A stretch of 49,917 nt of DNA from IMG/VR virus record IMGVR_UViG_2718218131_000006; one strand, given 5' to 3'. Positions 42,141 to 46,033 of this stretch are shown here, one piece after another. This DNA comes from a virus (lineage: Duplodnaviria; Heunggongvirae; Uroviricota; Caudoviricetes). A model generated the notes under the pieces. The model saw only the letters and a list, made by a program, of their open reading frames with translations, had not been told where the DNA came from and made no database searches. Both the position numbers and the translations under genes were made by a program. Position 1 is the first letter of the stretch; every line of letters starts with the position of its first letter.

Positions 42141-42642
42141 AATTCCATCCGACTTTTTGTTGATATTGCTGACGATACGCACGCTTGAAAGCAATGGCTT
42201 TTTCTATAAGCTCGTCAGTCTCACGTTCCACAACAGCTGGATCCGCAAAAAGCAGCCCGGACTCCACCACATCGCCATATTCTTTGTTTAACCCGGCGAT
42301 CATGTACGTAATGCTTTTTCCGTCAGTAATTTCACAATACAACCTGAAATCGCTGATCCGGATAGCCTCCATAATTGCCGGAATCAGCGCCGTGAATTTT
42401 TCACGCTTATCCCTGGTGTCGATAGCTTTCCAGCGTTCGAATATCTTCACCCTGTTAACGCCCAGCGCCCGTTGATCAACCGCGCCATCATCAAACGTGA
42501 CGCGATGAACATCGATGTTCGGGCGTTCTTTCAGAGCCCAGAATGCTTCCGTGATTAATATCGTCGCCTGCTCCTGCGTCATTCCTGGTCGGCATACCCA
42601 GGCATCCAGAGCCTCGCGAGCCTGCTCAGGAGTGAATATCAT
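42121..42642 (-). CDS. Hypothetical early protein (possibly YdaT/cII-like)
   Basis: 173-aa ORF between the cro-like and O-like genes; family assignment is a guess. Confidence 0.5.
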   Translation of the reverse strand: MIFTPEQAREALDAWVCRPGMTQEQATILITEAFWALKERPNIDVHRVTFDDGAVDQRALGVNRVKIFERWKAIDTRDKREKFTALIPAIMEAIRISDFRLYCEITDGKSITYMIAGLNKEYGDVVESGLLFADPAVVERETDELIEKAIAFKRAYRQQYQQKVGWNYESSFC

Positions 42643-42901
42643 TGTTCACCGCCAGTGATTCATTCGACATACACTTATTTTCACAAGGTAGTCCATCTGT
42701 TGGGTTGGGATAAATGTCAGGGCGAAGTTCGTGGGGAGTAATTTCCCAATTCAGTAATGCACAGAGTGACGACACGCGTTCAGCAGGAACCTTGCCTTTA
42801 ATGAACCACTTGCCTACGGCCTGGGAGCTAATGCCAAAGTGTTTGCCAATGTCAGTTTTCGACATTTTTTTAGAGATCTTATCGTGAATTTGATTACTCA
42901 T
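42626..42901 (-). CDS. Cro/DicC-like small helix-turn-helix regulator
   Basis: Divergent from the repressor; MSKTDIGKHFGISSQAVGKWF resembles the DicC/YdaS N-terminus; start could be 42864. Confidence 0.6.
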   Translation of the reverse strand: MSNQIHDKISKKMSKTDIGKHFGISSQAVGKWFIKGKVPAERVSSLCALLNWEITPHELRPDIYPNPTDGLPCENKCMSNESLAVNNDIHS

Positions 42902-42939
42902 ACTTTCCACCAGTACTATTAATTTCACCTACGCTACCA

Positions 42940-42980
42940 TCAAAAACTATAAGTTTCAACACAAAACCTATAGTTTTGCT
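42940..42980. promoter_or_regulatory. Two near-palindromic operator-like sites (AAAACYATAGTTTT type) between the divergent cro-like and repressor genes
   Basis: aaaaactataagttt (42942-42957) and aaaacctatagtttt (42963-42977); TATACT -10-like hexamer at 42991. Confidence 0.5.
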
Positions 42981-43013
42981 GATTGGTGAAACCTTTGGTT
43001 GTATACTTAAAAA

Positions 43014-43424
43014 ATGAGTAAAATAAACCATCCAATATTTGCTGAGAGAGTTCGGCAAGCAATGAGCGAACATGGCTGGTCGTTAGCCGGTCTGGCTAAA
43101 AAGGTTATGCTGTCCCATACCGCTGTGCGTAAGTGGGCAACAGGAGAAACCATTGCCAGCGGAGAAAGATTAAAAAGACTTGCCGCGGTAACAGGAAAAC
43201 CAGAACATTGGTTTTTTATGCCGCTAAATGAACATTCAAAGGAAGAAGATGCACCACCACTAATCCAGCTTGACGACAAAGAAAAGGCGCTATTGTCCCT
43301 TTTTAATCAGTTGCCAGAAACGGAAAAGCTGAGACTAATCATGCACACAAAAAGCATTCTTCATGAAATGGATCTTCTAAAAAACGATGTATACGACATA
43401 ATCAATGATATTCAAAAACAATAA
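43014..43424 (+). CDS. Prophage repressor (DicA/cI-like, XRE helix-turn-helix)
   Basis: N-terminal helix-turn-helix AERVRQAMSEHGWSLAGLAKKVMLSHTAVRKW; KALLSLFNQLPETEK resembles DicA. Confidence 0.75.
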   Translation: MSKINHPIFAERVRQAMSEHGWSLAGLAKKVMLSHTAVRKWATGETIASGERLKRLAAVTGKPEHWFFMPLNEHSKEEDAPPLIQLDDKEKALLSLFNQLPETEKLRLIMHTKSILHEMDLLKNDVYDIINDIQKQ

Positions 43425-43432
43425 GTTACATG

Positions 43433-43460
43433 AAAAAAGCGCCTCCCTGGCGCTTTTTTT
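43433..43460 (+). terminator. Rho-independent terminator after the repressor gene
   Basis: GCGCC-tccct-GGCGC then TTTTTTT. Confidence 0.75.
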
Positions 43461-43496
43461 ATCCTCACAAATAAAACTTTATGTTCCATTGCCTAT

Positions 43497-43525
43497 TGAC
43501 CAATAAAACCAATAGTTTTACCATT
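43497..43525 (+). promoter_or_regulatory. Putative early-left promoter with an operator-like palindrome in the spacer
   Basis: TTGACC, 17-nt spacer, TACCAT; spacer contains aaaaccaatagtttt, a third copy of the operator-like motif. Confidence 0.45.
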
Positions 43526-43602
43526 CATTCCATCAACAACGAACCGCATCGTTGTCAGGCTAAAGTTCCGCTACCCCGGCGTTAAGGGGAAATGAGGTCA
43601 GC

Positions 43603-43758
43603 ATGGATACTATCGATCTTGGCAACAACGAATCTCTGGTGTACGGCGTGTTTCCAAACCAGGACGGCACCTTCACCGCAATGACGTATACCAAAAGCAA
43701 AACGTTTAAAACCGAAAATGGTGCCCGTCGCTGGCTGGAAAGAAACTCAGGTGAGTGA
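43603..43758 (+). CDS. Small protein, YdfA-like by position and length (51 aa)
   Basis: Not in the ORF track because under 60 aa; GAGGT ribosome-binding site; MDTIDLGNNESLVYGVF... Confidence 0.5.
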   Translation: MDTIDLGNNESLVYGVFPNQDGTFTAMTYTKSKTFKTENGARRWLERNSGE

Positions 43759-43759
43759 T

Positions 43760-43888
43760 ATGGATTTTGACACAATCATGGAAAAGGCTTACGAAGAATA
43801 CTTCGAAGGCCTTGCCGAAGGCGAAGAAGCTCACAGCTTCAACGAATTTAAACAGGCGCTTTCCAGTTCGGCAAAATCTAACGGCTGA
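43760..43888 (+). CDS. Small acidic protein, YdfB-like by position and length (42 aa)
   Basis: ATG 2 nt after the previous stop with GGTGAG ribosome-binding site; MDFDTIMEKAYEEYFEGLAEGEE...; preferred over the overlapping basic 69-aa track ORF. Confidence 0.45.
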   Translation: MDFDTIMEKAYEEYFEGLAEGEEAHSFNEFKQALSSSAKSNG

Positions 43889-43917
43889 TAAGCGAAACAG
43901 CACCGCGAGGAATCAGT

Positions 43918-44124
43918 ATGCAGAAACGAGAACCCGTCATCATCGCGCCAGACTATACCGATGATGAACTTTATGAGTGGATGCGCGGGAAGATACGCGC
44001 CATTAATGACCTGAAGCAGGCCACTGATCACAAAGAGCGCCTCTCTGAAACACTGGCGTCAGTGACGCAGGATATTACCGCTCTGGCAAAAAGCGCGGCA
44101 TTAAACGTTTCGCGAGTGATCTAA
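43918..44124 (+). CDS. Small protein, YdfC-like by position
   Basis: 68-aa ORF with GAGGAA ribosome-binding site. Confidence 0.55.
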   Translation: MQKREPVIIAPDYTDDELYEWMRGKIRAINDLKQATDHKERLSETLASVTQDITALAKSAALNVSRVI

Positions 44125-44148
44125 AACCACCGACTGATGAGGTTGACT

Positions 44149-44787
44149 ATGGAATTTAAAGATTTACCAATTTCAATACAGGAAATGGCCGCTGATGTGA
44201 TTCGCTCGCAACTGGCGCGGAACCCAATGATATTAGTAGATAAACTGTTCATCAGAAATTTATCAAATCATGTCCGTAATTCTTTTACCGGACTGTATTC
44301 ATATTCGTTCACAAACAATCATTGTGTAGAAAATAAAGCAAAACTCATTGCAGAAACGACAGCGCAAAACATCAACACGAAACCAACGGAAGAAGAAATT
44401 GATCAGTTTGCTCATGATGCTGGTTTAAAAAACAAGGAAGAAAAATCGCCATATGCGGGAAACATGTTTGTTTATGACAACCTTATCCGAATTCGTGGCG
44501 AAATTCCGACTGAATACCTGGCAAAAATTCACCAGGCATTACTTAAAAATCTGGAAACGGAAGTATTTGATGGCAACACCAACGGCTCCTTCGTGGTGTC
44601 AGCTCTCGCAAAAGAGTGGGATAAAGATAATCGCTGGAATGTTGCTACATGGTTATTCAGCAACAAAGCTTCCGCCCTGGAAGCTGCGGCGTGTATTTGC
44701 GACCTGCTAAGGACAGACCGCAAATACAACCTGGATGTGTATAGCTATATTTATGCTGAACACTATCCGCTATGGATTAACTGGTAA
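44149..44787 (+). CDS. Hypothetical AT-rich 212-aa protein (moron of unknown function)
   Basis: GAGG ribosome-binding site; lower GC than its surroundings; no recognisable motifs. Confidence 0.6.
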   Translation: MEFKDLPISIQEMAADVIRSQLARNPMILVDKLFIRNLSNHVRNSFTGLYSYSFTNNHCVENKAKLIAETTAQNINTKPTEEEIDQFAHDAGLKNKEEKSPYAGNMFVYDNLIRIRGEIPTEYLAKIHQALLKNLETEVFDGNTNGSFVVSALAKEWDKDNRWNVATWLFSNKASALEAAACICDLLRTDRKYNLDVYSYIYAEHYPLWINW

Positions 44788-44997
44788 TTACAAAGCTGTA
44801 CCAGCAGGGCCACGACGACCAGCACCACGATTGTAATCAATGATGCCATTATAAAGCGCATTATTTAATTTATCGTCGAATGCCGATTCTGTGAGTCCTA
44901 GCTCTGAATGAGTTTTTAATAACCCTGATTGCCTGAGTTGATTAACCAGGCATTCAATCTGTTTTTCAATAAGCGGATGTATTGGCTTGTTTGGCAT
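44788..44997 (-). CDS. Hypothetical 69-aa protein, convergent with and abutting the 212-aa gene
   Basis: GGAGGA ribosome-binding site; MPNKPIHPLIEKQIECLVNQLRQSGLL...; stop codons of the two genes form TAATTA. Confidence 0.45.
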   Translation of the reverse strand: MPNKPIHPLIEKQIECLVNQLRQSGLLKTHSELGLTESAFDDKLNNALYNGIIDYNRGAGRRGPAGTAL

Positions 44998-45324
44998 TTT
45001 ATCCTCCATTGAGGTTCTGGGTTAAAAATGGAGACCAACACGCTGCCACGTGTGGTCGTGCGCCGGACACGGATAAGAATCCGGTACTGACAGTTTACTG
45101 AAAGGATATTTCCCTGAAAAGTCAGGGCATAACGCGAAAGCGCACGGCGGAGGTGTCTTTTCCTTAGAAGGCTTGTCGTTAGATTTCTTCGACCGTGCGC
45201 TTCCGGTTGTGGCAATCCGCGAAATGGCGCGGCGGTACGTATGGCGGGGTTATTCCTTCCCCCTGTTGAGGACACCGGGTTGTCAGGTTGACCATACGCC
45301 TGAGTGACAACCCCGCTGCAACAA

Positions 45325-45383
45325 CCCATGTTGATTACCTTTTGGCGGCATCAGTTTCATTGCTGGCTGATGTCCGCCCTTTT
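45325..45383 (+). ncRNA. dicF: DicF-like small RNA with intrinsic terminator
   Basis: TTTTGGCGGCATCAGTTTCATTGCTGGCTGATGTCCGCCCTTTTT resembles my memory of K-12 DicF; located just upstream of the dicB homologue as in Qin; 5' end approximate. Confidence 0.6.
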
Positions 45384-45387
45384 TAAA

Positions 45388-45550
45388 GTGAATTTTGTGA
45401 TGCGGTGAATGCGGCTCAGCGCACGCGGAACAGTTAAAAAGGCCAGTTGACTTCCGTATTGGTTCTTATGGGTGGGTTCTCTGTATCCGGCGTTAATTGT
45501 TAACTGGTTAACGTCACCTGGAGGCACCAGGCACCGCATCACAAAATTCA
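45388..45550 (+). promoter_or_regulatory. Perfect 19-bp inverted repeat enclosing about 125 nt, between the DicF terminator and the dicB ribosome-binding site
   Basis: TGAATTTTGTGATGCGGTG at 45388-45406 and its exact reverse complement at 45532-45550. Confidence 0.6.
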
Positions 45551-45567
45551 TTGTTGAGGACGCGATA

Positions 45568-45756
45568 ATGGAAACGTTATTACCAAACGTTAATACGTCT
45601 GAAGGTTGTTTTGAAATTGGTGTCAGTATCAGTAACCCTGTATTTACTGAAGATGCCATTAATAAGAGAAAACACGAACGGGAGCTATTAAATCAAATAT
45701 GCATTGTTTCAATGCTGGCCCGTTTACGTCTGATGCAAAAAGGATACTGGCAATGA
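45568..45756 (+). CDS. dicB: Cell-division inhibitor DicB
   Basis: 62 aa METLLPNVNTSEGCFEIGVSISNPVFTEDAINKRK...SMLARLRLM matches my memory of K-12 DicB; GAGGA ribosome-binding site. Confidence 0.8.
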   Translation: METLLPNVNTSEGCFEIGVSISNPVFTEDAINKRKHERELLNQICIVSMLARLRLMQKGYWQ

Positions 45757-45956
45757 ATACTGCTATTGCCCTCACTCTGACTGTTTTTCTTAACACTGGC
45801 GAGCCTGTTGACCTGGTTATTGACATTTACGGTTCGATGAAAGAATGCATGGCTGCCGCAGCAGAACAGAAAATTCCCGGTAACTGTTATCCGGTTGATA
45901 AAGTTATTCACATGGACAATAACGAAATCCCGGCAGGACTTAAACCAGCACCGTAA
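45753..45956 (+). CDS. Small protein, YdfD-like by position
   Basis: 67 aa; ATGA overlap with the dicB stop; hydrophobic N-terminus. Confidence 0.55.
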   Translation: MNTAIALTLTVFLNTGEPVDLVIDIYGSMKECMAAAAEQKIPGNCYPVDKVIHMDNNEIPAGLKPAP

Positions 45957-46033
45957 TAAATATCCGGTTTCATTTTTATATGCCAGCAATGACAGGGATT
46001 TGTTCACCCTTAAATCTATAATGAGGTTTATCA

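What the first reader, a model, noticed from the sequence alone, without database searches (positions are those of the whole stretch)
44149..44997. AT-rich 212-aa gene and abutting convergent 69-aa gene inserted into the dicB-like operon
Between the YdfC-like gene and the DicF-like sRNA there is an extra module: a low-GC 212-aa protein with no motif I recognise, and a 69-aa gene on the opposite strand whose stop codon directly abuts it (TAATTA, no spacer and no terminator). Convergent transcription without a terminator implies mutual antisense interference. The compositional contrast suggests recent acquisition. This is the strongest candidate in the window for an uncharacterised accessory function.
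Basis: partly seen in the sequence, partly recalled or inferred. Interest (0 to 1): 0.6.

Follow-up and report, generated by a model that had tools for sequence, protein, structure and literature searches.

The report
Uncharacterised convergent two-gene prophage cassette
Two real, conserved tail-to-tail genes of unknown function occupy a swap-in slot of a prophage's cell-division-inhibitor (dicBF) operon; they look like one allele of a family of matched 'long protein plus small antisense protein' cassettes that I found described nowhere.

Summary
A 212-aa gene (44149-44787, +) and a 69-aa gene (44788-44997, -) meet stop-to-stop (TAATTA), with no spacer and no terminator-like site, between ydfC and the DicF leader. 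Both evolve under purifying selection (dN/dS 0.13-0.26). Neither matches Pfam, NCBIfam, PADLOC, PDB or a known fold; each matches only a PHROG of unknown function.

The pair is not rare or obviously recent. It occurs in about 11% of complete E. coli genomes, mostly STEC, and in Salmonella. Its GC content equals that of neighbouring dicA and dicB.

Linkage is near-perfect: 596 versus 599 genomes, and 74 of 74 ORF69 copies lie beside the C-domain. A 33%/41%-identical version in Cox-type prophages keeps the convergent geometry although the long protein's N-terminus is replaced.

The site is a cassette slot. The left flank is conserved (ribosome-binding site plus an N-terminal module of about 55 aa). 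The right flank is conserved too (5' region of the antisense gene). Between them lie at least 9 different C-terminus/small-protein combinations. K-12 has the empty site, and Rac carries sieB antisense in the same slot.

Best reading (0.4): a cognate protein pair expressed reciprocally, ORF69 in the lysogen and ORF212 on derepression. Function, promoter and interaction remain untested.

The parts
43496..43524 (+). Candidate operon promoter (TTGACC-17-TACCAT) between the dicA-like gene and ydfA. It would drive ydfA-ydfB-ydfC-ORF212-(leader)-DicF-dicB.
   Evidence: Consensus scan, (not above shuffles). Its position matches the DicA-repressed dicBF promoter described for K-12 in PMC5069750.
44149..44787 (+). 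ORF212, a 212-aa protein (phrog_2151, function unknown). It has an N-terminal two-helix module, a linker predicted with low confidence, and a C-terminal alpha/beta domain.
44149..44313 (+). N-terminal module (aa 1-55, MEFKDLP...NVRxxFxGLY). It is shared with many otherwise unrelated proteins at this slot. Its coding DNA, together with the ribosome-binding site just upstream (44139-44142), forms the conserved left flank of the cassette.
44440..44787 (+). C-domain (aa ~98-212), with motifs MFVYDxLIxIxGxIP and VFDGxxNGxF. The model shows a beta-alpha-beta-beta-alpha-beta sandwich. This is the part that co-occurs with ORF69.
44785..44790 (.). Abutting stop codons TAA|TTA (TAATTA), 0-nt spacer.
   Evidence: Conserved in 78 of 86 copies.
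44788..44997 (-). ORF69, a 69-aa soluble protein (phrog_4274, function unknown). It is predicted as a helical hairpin (H8-24, H37-61) with a conserved SGLLKT loop and a basic tail RRGPAGxxL.
44998..45097 (-). Conserved 5' region of the antisense small gene, forming the right flank of the cassette. It holds the ribosome-binding site GGAGG (45007-45003), a complementary UCUCCAU (45034-45028), hairpin 2 (45056-45034, compensatory changes between cassette types), hairpin 1 CCGGAU..GUGUCCGG (45084-45063, G-U pairs fit this strand only) and a weak -10-like TAAACT (45097-45092).
   Evidence: Folding z-scores are not significant and no promoter is established.
45057..45330 (+). Context, not part of the cassette cargo: the conserved structured leader of the dicBF transcript that begins at the right flank and ends at DicF.

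Best explanation
ORF212 and ORF69 form one allele of a polymorphic two-gene cassette that sits at a fixed slot of dicBF/kil-type early operons in enterobacterial prophages.

**Proposed mechanism.**
- ORF212 is transcribed with the DicA-repressed operon, so it is made only when the prophage is derepressed.
- ORF69 is transcribed from the opposite strand, from the conserved right flank, so it can be made while the operon is silent.
- The ORF212 C-domain and ORF69 are cognate partners that bind each other, one neutralising or modulating the other.
- I favour ORF69 as the lysogen-expressed factor, the positional analogue of sieB, with the ORF212 C-domain as its early-expressed partner. The direction is not resolved.
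- The genes meet stop-to-stop without a terminator. Operon read-through therefore both collides with ORF69 transcription and makes RNA antisense to the whole ORF69 mRNA. Derepression would switch ORF69 off as ORF212 comes on.

**Shown:** both genes are real, and the linkage, geometry, cassette polymorphism and slot homology with sieB are established.

**Inferred:** a promoter for ORF69, the protein-protein interaction, antagonism between the two proteins, and the biological role.
For: 1. Both genes are under purifying selection.
2. Linkage is near-perfect. ORF69 DNA is in 596 genomes at 743 places, and C-domain DNA is in 599 genomes at 750 places. In IMG/VR, 74 of 74 ORF69 copies lie next to the C-domain, and 78 of 86 pairs have the identical 0-nt junction.
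3. The pair survives deep divergence and a domain swap. P0172 and P0185 have a different N-terminus (P0172 also has a DicA-like HTH) plus a C-domain 31-33% identical. Both sit in Cox-type prophages and again have a convergent, 3'-overlapping small gene. P0172's partner is 41% identical to ORF69, and P0185 again has a convergent 69-aa ORF.
4. The slot is polymorphic. Among 120 loci with the left-flank 20-mer there are at least 9 distinct combinations of long-protein C-terminus and small protein. They overlap at the 3' ends by 0-77 nt, and each small-protein type was seen with one C-terminal type (single examples).
5. Unrelated small genes share the same upstream region, with compensatory changes in hairpin 2 and G-U pairs that fit only the antisense-strand RNA.
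6. In Rac, sieB lies antisense in the same slot, after the ydfA homologue and before the DicF-like RNA and kilR. It overlaps ydaF by 4 bp at the 3' end. From established knowledge, sieB is a prophage-expressed exclusion gene.
Against: - There is no direct evidence of interaction, toxicity or exclusion.
- No consensus promoter was found for ORF69. The only hit (TTAACC-18-TAAAAT, 45025-44996) overlaps its start codon and is not above shuffles.
- The hairpin that would sequester the ribosome-binding site is not thermodynamically significant.
- Linkage of two genes with a 0-nt spacer is partly trivial, because recombination breakpoints lie in the conserved flanks.
- ORF212 occurs without an intact ORF69 in 6 of 86 copies (L010 type and Salmonella frameshifts). 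About 44 of 120 slot alleles have no small gene. A partner is therefore not obligatory for N-module proteins.
- The ORF212 structure model has low confidence (pLDDT 58.7), and fold matches are generic.
Confidence: 0.4

Rival explanations
1. The two genes are functionally independent and hitch-hike as one recombination block. ORF69 would be a sieB-like, lysogen-expressed accessory gene (a 'moron') acting on its own. ORF212 would be an ordinary early accessory protein. Their co-occurrence would reflect only the conserved flanks that define the exchange unit.
For: The recombination flanks are conserved and the cargo is variable. The 0-nt spacer makes separation rare. Cassettes exist without a small gene. 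ORF212 exists without ORF69. sieB in Rac has no N-module partner; its convergent neighbour is ydaF.
Against: The C-domain and the ORF69 family stay paired at 33%/41% identity, in a different prophage backbone and with a different N-terminal architecture. Each small-protein type pairs with one C-terminal type. Such persistence is hard to explain without selection for the pairing.
Confidence: 0.3
2. The pair is a toxin-antitoxin or abortive-infection addiction module. ORF212 would be the toxin, kept off by DicA and by ORF69. ORF69 would be a labile protein antitoxin.
For: It is a two-gene unit on a mobile element. One partner is small, helical and has a disordered tail. The dicBF operon already encodes toxic products, which is the context drawn in PMC5069750.
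Against: The genes are convergent and not co-transcribed. Neither matches any TA or defence family in Pfam, NCBIfam or PADLOC. The C-domain alignment has no invariant Cys or His, so nothing points to a Prp-type protease active site. The presumed toxin persists without the presumed antitoxin in 6 of 86 copies, whereas ORF69 is never found alone. This is the opposite of the usual expectation.
Confidence: 0.1
3. The functional product of the minus strand is an antisense RNA that regulates ORF212 or the upstream operon. ORF69 would be incidental or only weakly translated.
For: The right-flank 5' region is conserved even where no small ORF follows: the 124-aa cassettes with the flank 30 nt after the stop, and the empty K-12 site. 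The hairpins are structured and fit the minus strand. The overlap with ORF212 would be complete.
Against: ORF69 shows clear frame-specific purifying selection. Its length is conserved across 35 clusters. It keeps protein-level homology at 41% identity. It has a strong GGAGG ribosome-binding site. The other small ORFs are each recognised as PHROG families.
Confidence: 0.1
4. This is an annotation artefact or decaying DNA. PGAP marks the identical ORF212 in strain PK8241 as a pseudogene 'missing N-terminus'.
For: The PGAP flag. Some database copies are frameshifted (P0116, P0118 and P0120).
Against: The ORF is intact and matches phrog_2151 over its full length, 1-212 of 212. The exact protein is seen on about 1000 contigs. 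dN/dS is 0.13-0.39. The PGAP call most likely reflects the mosaic N-terminal segment, aa 8-70, which is divergent with dS 1.24.
Confidence: 0.02

Closest known systems
sieB (superinfection exclusion B) of Rac, lambda and P22
   Same: The slot and orientation are the same. In K-12 Rac, sieB lies antisense inside the early-left operon, directly after the ydfA homologue ydaF (3' ends overlap by 4 bp) and before a DicF-like RNA and kilR. From established knowledge, sieB is expressed from the repressed prophage and aborts superinfecting phage, and P22 protects itself with the cognate Esc product.
   Different: There is no sequence or fold similarity. ORF69 is 69 aa and soluble (GRAVY -0.46), whereas the Rac sieB gene encodes 162 aa and, from general knowledge, SieB is a membrane protein. 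ORF69 gives no Pfam hit. sieB has no N-module/C-domain partner gene. No exclusion activity of ORF69 has been tested.
Polymorphic toxin-immunity cassettes (CdiA-CT/CdiI, Rhs-CT/RhsI) and pore-forming colicin operons with an opposite-strand immunity gene (from general knowledge)
   Same: There is a conserved N-terminal part, a variable C-terminal part, and an adjacent small gene that changes together with the C-terminus. As recalled for colicins A, E1 and Ia, the small gene lies on the opposite strand inside an inducible operon, upstream of a lysis or kil-type gene.
   Different: There is no secretion or translocation domain, no known toxin domain and no membrane immunity protein. The proteins are short and cytoplasmic and are encoded in a prophage early operon. 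Toxicity and immunity are untested.
Variable-cargo hotspots at fixed positions of P2-like prophages and P4-like satellites (PMC9122126)
   Same: A fixed site in a prophage backbone is bounded by conserved sequence and holds many alternative small cargo sets.
   Different: In this case the conserved flanks lie inside the cargo genes themselves: the N-terminal coding module on the left and the 5' region of the antisense gene on the right. None of the cargo matches PADLOC defence models.
Type II and type I toxin-antitoxin systems
   Same: It is a small two-gene unit on a mobile element, with antisense overlap of the transcripts.
   Different: The genes are not co-transcribed (unlike type II). The small protein is not hydrophobic (unlike a type I toxin). 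There is no family match.

Membership tests
PHROG 2151 / PHROG 4274 (phage protein families, function unknown) | Full-length profile match | tested here: met
   ORF212 matches phrog_2151 at 2.9e-100 over 1-212 of 212. ORF69 matches phrog_4274 at 5e-42 over 1-69 of 69.
Type II toxin-antitoxin | Two adjacent genes co-transcribed on one strand | tested here: not met
   The genes are convergent with abutting stops.
Type II toxin-antitoxin | Homology to a known toxin or antitoxin family | tested here: not met
   No hit in Pfam, NCBIfam or PADLOC.
Type II toxin-antitoxin | Toxin inhibits growth and the antitoxin neutralises it by binding | not testable with these tools
   This needs expression experiments.
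Type I toxin-antitoxin | Small hydrophobic membrane toxin | tested here: not met
   ORF69 has GRAVY -0.46 and is predicted as a soluble helical hairpin.
SieB-type superinfection exclusion gene | Antisense gene in the early-left operon slot between the ydfA/ydaF-type gene and the DicF-like RNA with its kil/dicB gene | tested here: met
   Rac has ydaF(-), sieB(+), a DicF-like RNA (39 bits) and kilR(-). The window has ydfA-C(+), ORF212(+), ORF69(-), a DicF-like RNA and dicB.
SieB-type superinfection exclusion gene | Sequence membership in the SieB family | tested here: not met
   ORF69 gives no Pfam or NCBIfam hit.
SieB-type superinfection exclusion gene | Expressed from the repressed prophage and excludes superinfecting phage | not testable with these tools
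   No expression or plaque data are available. The promoter is not established.
Polymorphic effector-immunity cassette | Conserved N-terminal region with variable C-terminal region | tested here: met
   In the representative search, about 46 of 54 hits share only aa ~1-55. The 120-locus survey gave 15 C-terminal clusters, several of them truncated copies.
Polymorphic effector-immunity cassette | Adjacent small gene that co-varies one-to-one with the C-terminal type | tested here: met
   Nine combinations were found. Each small-protein type was seen with one C-terminal type. The C-domain/ORF69 pairing is kept at 33%/41% identity.
Polymorphic effector-immunity cassette | Recognisable toxin domain or delivery/secretion domain | tested here: not met
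Known anti-phage defence systems (PADLOC-DB 2.0) | Match to any component model | tested here: not met
   Zero families for either protein at E<=1.

The most novel reading that the evidence does not exclude
The slot between ydfA-C and the DicF leader holds a previously undescribed, intracellular, polymorphic system. The long proteins share one N-terminal module and carry interchangeable C-terminal specificity domains. Each is matched to its own small protein, which is encoded antisense and driven by one shared promoter and 5'UTR. The matched pairs would act as exclusion-factor/escape-factor (or effector/immunity) alleles, so that related prophages in one cell (STEC carry several) discriminate self from non-self during induction or superinfection.
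Probability: 0.25. Interest if true: 0.8.

Novelty: new variant of a known kind. Interest (0 to 1): 0.55.

Why it matters
The pair is present in about one in nine complete E. coli genomes and in all the major STEC serogroups listed among the hits (O157, O145, O26, O111, O121). It sits inside the operon that makes DicF and DicB, two regulators already tied to cell division and phage resistance, and DicF also, from my memory of the EHEC literature, to virulence. Yet both proteins, and every other allele at the slot, are annotated only as hypothetical.

If the matched-pair reading is right, the slot is a compact natural library of cognate protein pairs with a built-in reciprocal expression switch. 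It would give a direct handle on how co-resident lambdoid prophages compete or protect themselves.

Even if the genes are independent, the work defines a precise recombination slot. It also shows that the K-12 reference operon is the empty allele.

Tried and rejected
**Family and sequence searches**
- Pfam, NCBIfam and PADLOC gave nothing for either protein or for the other cassette proteins.
- PDB sequence and profile searches with A4, A5, A6 and A11 gave nothing. A weak Noc hit at E 0.06 was ignored as chance.

**Structure**
- Foldseek against BFVD gave weak Prp/YsxB and SUI1-like matches with target-normalised TM 0.42-0.45 for the best hits. I rejected a protease reading because the C-domain alignment has no invariant Cys or His.
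- Foldseek of ORF69 against PDB found nothing.
- The afdb50 library was unavailable.

**Collection scans**
- The GTDB representative-genome scan returned only spurious Williamsia fragments.
- Isolated-phage genomes carry no ORF69, and only the N-module of ORF212 appears, in PPompW prophage records.

**Signals on the DNA**
- The minus-strand terminator-like hairpin inside ORF212 (44685-44667) is not conserved in O157 and was dismissed.
- A LexA-box reading of the ORF69 upstream region was checked by eye and does not fit.
- The hairpin that would sequester the ribosome-binding site was kept only as a possibility, because its z-scores are not significant.
- No tRNA-like element was found in the leader.

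**Literature**
- No paper mentions Ybl81, the WP accessions, or a cassette at this site.

Full report
**1. What is in the sequence**

Window 42600-48500 is the immunity and early-left region of a Rac/Qin-type lambdoid prophage. In order it holds:
- a dicC-like gene (-)
- a dicA-like gene, 43014-43424
- ydfA, 43603-43758
- ydfB
- a ydfC-like gene, 43918-44124
- ORF212, 44149-44787 (+)
- ORF69, 44788-44997 (-)
- a 270-nt non-coding stretch
- a DicF-like RNA, 45329-45379 (Rfam 34 bits, gathering score 48)
- dicB
- a DUF1482/ydfD-like gene
- a RecE-like exonuclease

ORF212 has a GAGG ribosome-binding site 7 nt upstream. ORF69 has GGAGG 5 nt before its ATG. The stops abut as TAA|TTA at 44785-44790. 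The consensus scan reports no terminator-like site at the junction.

**2. Both are real genes**

ORF69 compared between the window, O157:H7 and Salmonella gives dN/dS 0.18-0.26 in its own frame, against 0.34-4.0 in the other five frames. Its length of 69 aa is kept across 35 sequence clusters.

The ORF212 C-terminal part gives dN/dS 0.13-0.18. Residues 1-70 are much more diverged (dS 1.24, dN/dS 0.39), which marks a mosaic gene. The mosaic most likely explains why PGAP labels the identical ORF in strain PK8241 a pseudogene 'missing N-terminus'. The ORF is intact, matches phrog_2151 end to end, and the exact protein is on about 1000 contigs.

**3. No known family or fold**

Pfam, NCBIfam and PADLOC give nothing. 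PHROGs gives phrog_2151 and phrog_4274, both of unknown function. PDB sequence and profile searches are empty.

AlphaFold2 results:
- ORF212 has a low-confidence model (pLDDT 58.7). It shows two N-terminal helices, a low-confidence linker (residues ~49-101, pLDDT mostly below 50) and a C-terminal beta-alpha-beta-beta-alpha-beta sandwich with pLDDT 60-83.
- ORF69 has a fair model (pLDDT 78): a helical hairpin with a disordered basic tail.

**4. Distribution, and why 'recent acquisition' is not supported**

The exact arrangement is in 29 of 5426 complete E. coli genomes. An 85%-identical version is in about 570 more, mostly STEC O157, O145, O26, O111 and O121. Homologues are restricted to Escherichia and Salmonella prophages. 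They are absent from isolated-phage genomes and from GTDB representative genomes.

GC content is 0.405 for ORF212 and 0.410 for ORF69, the same as the dicA-like gene (0.409) and above dicB (0.372). The apparent contrast comes from the GC-richer ydfC (0.507) and leader (0.551) on either side.

**5. The two genes travel together, even when almost everything else changes**

In complete E. coli genomes, ORF69 DNA is found in 596 genomes at 743 places. C-domain DNA is found in 599 genomes at 750 places.

In IMG/VR, 78 of 86 C-domain copies have an intact ORF69 at exactly 0-nt spacing, and 74 of 74 ORF69 copies have the C-domain next door. The exceptions are these:
- Four L010-type loci, where ORF212 ends ...DWFKG and other DNA follows.
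- Two Salmonella loci with a frameshifted ORF69 tail.
- One locus with a frameshifted ORF212.
- One locus cut by a contig end.

A full HMMER scan of 1.84 billion representatives found the C-domain in only two other architectures. P0172 has another N-domain, a DicA-like HTH and the C-domain. P0185 has the other N-domain and the C-domain. Both lie in prophages with an integrase-repressor-Cox switch, and both again have a convergent small gene overlapping their 3' end.

That small protein is 41% identical to ORF69 over its whole length, sharing the motifs QLxxSGLLKTxSxL and RRGxPAGVxL. The C-domains are 31-33% identical. The association is therefore between the C-domain and the ORF69 family, independent of the N-terminal module. 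This is the strongest argument for a functional link.

**6. The site is a cassette slot**

The first ~55 residues of ORF212 (MEFKDLP...NVRDAFxGLY) recur in dozens of proteins of 47-286 aa with unrelated C-termini.

I fetched 120 IMG/VR loci that carry the left-flank 20-mer ATGGAATTTAAAGATTTACC and classified them with a script. The table lists the combinations of long-protein length and convergent small protein.

| Long protein (aa) | Small protein (aa) |
|---|---|
| 133 | 92 |
| 135 | 77 |
| 112 | 44 |
| 212 | 69 |
| 106/109 | 91 |
| 124 | 73 |
| 186 | 80 |
| 101/122 | 100 |
| 201 | 63 |

- The 3' ends abut or overlap by 0-77 nt in 54 loci.
- Each small-protein type occurs with one C-terminal type.
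- Two cassette types (124 aa and 121 aa; about 44 loci) have no small gene.
- Every small protein tested is its own PHROG of unknown function.

The unrelated small genes share one upstream region. It consists of these elements:
- hairpin CCGGAU..GUGUCCGG, whose U-G and G-U pairs fit only the minus-strand RNA
- a second hairpin kept by compensatory changes (CCACACG/CGUGUUGG, CUCCAC/GUGGAG, CCCAAC/GUUGGG)
- a CUCC(A/U)U element complementary to the ribosome-binding site

Single-sequence folding is not significantly better than shuffles, so sequestration of the ribosome-binding site is only a possibility.

K-12 Qin is the empty allele. It lacks exactly the stretch from the long gene's ATG to the small gene's ribosome-binding site, but keeps the small gene's 5' region. 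Some Salmonella prophages carry two cassettes in tandem, each followed by the same right flank.

**7. Comparison with Rac**

In K-12 Rac the early-left operon is collinear with this one:
- ydaF is a ydfA homologue (87% nucleotide identity).
- A DicF-like RNA (39 bits) and an STnc100-like stretch precede kilR.
- Between them, sieB lies on the opposite strand, with its 3' end overlapping ydaF by 4 bp.

An antisense gene in this slot therefore has a characterised precedent. From established knowledge, that precedent is expressed from the repressed prophage and excludes other phages. ORF69 is its positional analogue, not its homologue.

**8. How it most likely works**

These points are shown:
- The two genes are real.
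- They have a fixed tail-to-tail geometry.
- The C-domain and ORF69 are linked across deep divergence.
- The slot holds a polymorphic cassette with two conserved flanks.
- The slot is homologous to that of sieB.

These points are inferred:
- ORF69 has its own promoter in the right flank. By eye, -10-like hexamers TAAACT, TATAAC and TATAGG lie exactly 7 nt before hairpin 1 in three lineages. The consensus scan does not support a promoter. Its only hit overlaps the ORF69 ATG and is not above shuffles.
- ORF69 is made while DicA keeps the operon off.
- On derepression, read-through from the operon promoter (candidate at 43496-43524) produces ORF212 and RNA antisense to all of ORF69, switching ORF69 off.
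- The C-domain and ORF69 bind each other, one neutralising or modulating the other.

The missing terminator is in any case required, because dicF and dicB lie downstream in the same transcript (PMC5069750).

The direction of any antagonism is open. ORF69 is never found alone whereas ORF212 sometimes is. This mildly favours ORF69 as the factor that needs a partner, in the manner of an exclusion factor with an escape factor (SieB/Esc). The alternative is a toxic ORF212 with ORF69 as its antidote.

I give the cognate-pair model 0.4. The other readings score as follows:
- independent hitch-hiking genes: 0.3
- a classical TA addiction module: 0.1
- an RNA-only role for the minus strand: 0.1
- an artefact: 0.02

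**9. Novelty and verdict**

The two families are catalogued but uncharacterised, and I found no description of the slot or its matched alleles. In kind it resembles known things: antisense lysogen-expressed accessory genes such as sieB, variable-cargo hotspots in prophages (PMC9122126), and polymorphic effector/immunity logic. It differs in that the conserved recombination flanks lie inside the cargo genes themselves, and in that unrelated small genes share one 5' region.

I rate it a new variant of a known kind, interest 0.55. The function is unproven, but the architecture is unusual and widespread in STEC, and it is directly testable.

Noticed in passing
window 45057-45330 (+): The 'long untranslated region' upstream of DicF is conserved far better than the flanking genes. 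It is 90% identical to K-12 and about 81% identical to prophages whose cassette proteins are only 33-41% identical. RNAalifold on 9 sequences gives a multi-helix structure on the + strand with 4 doubly compensated pairs. There is no Rfam 15 family and no tRNA. It is a candidate unnamed structured RNA, perhaps for DicF processing or antitermination.
   Followed up: partly
L171:3001-3098 (P1-like phage-plasmid pF11-4) vs window 45217-45315: About 100 nt of the same leader core (79% identical, with compensatory changes) lies between dmt and tRNA-Asn of a P1-like plasmid, in the same orientation as those genes. BLAST found 478 plasmid places in all.
   Followed up: partly
window 45329-45379 (+): The DicF-like RNA scores only 34 bits (gathering score 48). 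Its 5' 10-12 nt differ from K-12 and O157 DicF while the terminator hairpin is kept. Any targets that depend on the 5' part of DicF may therefore differ.
   Followed up: no
L002:2441-2500 (K-12 Qin, between ydfC and the leader): K-12 is the empty allele of the slot. The deletion runs exactly from the long gene's ATG to the small gene's ribosome-binding site. The antisense gene's 5' region (both hairpins and the CUCC element) is left without a gene behind it.
   Followed up: yes
L006/L008:5001-6520 (Salmonella prophages): Two cassettes lie in tandem (200 aa + 69 aa, then 119 aa + 64 aa), each followed by the same right flank. In L008 and L009 the ORF69 tail is frameshifted.
   Followed up: partly
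L297:6815-7716 (K-12 Rac): Rac carries a DicF-like RNA (39 bits) and an STnc100-like stretch upstream of kilR. ydaF is a ydfA (DUF1391) homologue, so the Rac kil operon and the Qin dicBF operon are collinear, with sieB in the cassette slot.
   Followed up: yes
L001:4373-4888 (strain PK8241, identical to window 44272-44787): PGAP annotates the intact ORF212 as a pseudogene 'missing N-terminus'. This most likely reflects the mosaic, divergent N-terminal 40 residues.
   Followed up: yes
window 45025-44996 (-) and L006 5839-5812 (-): A conserved promoter-like site (TTAAC(C/T), spacer 16-18, TAAAAT) has a -10 that overlaps the ORF69 start codon. If active, it would make an RNA antisense to ORF212 that lacks the ORF69 start. 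It is not above the shuffle expectation.
   Followed up: no
L173:717-959 (-): One alternative small cassette protein (80 aa) begins with the same MPNKP as ORF69, then carries CPAC...CPEH, a zinc-ribbon-like motif. The conserved right flank therefore reaches into the first codons.
   Followed up: no
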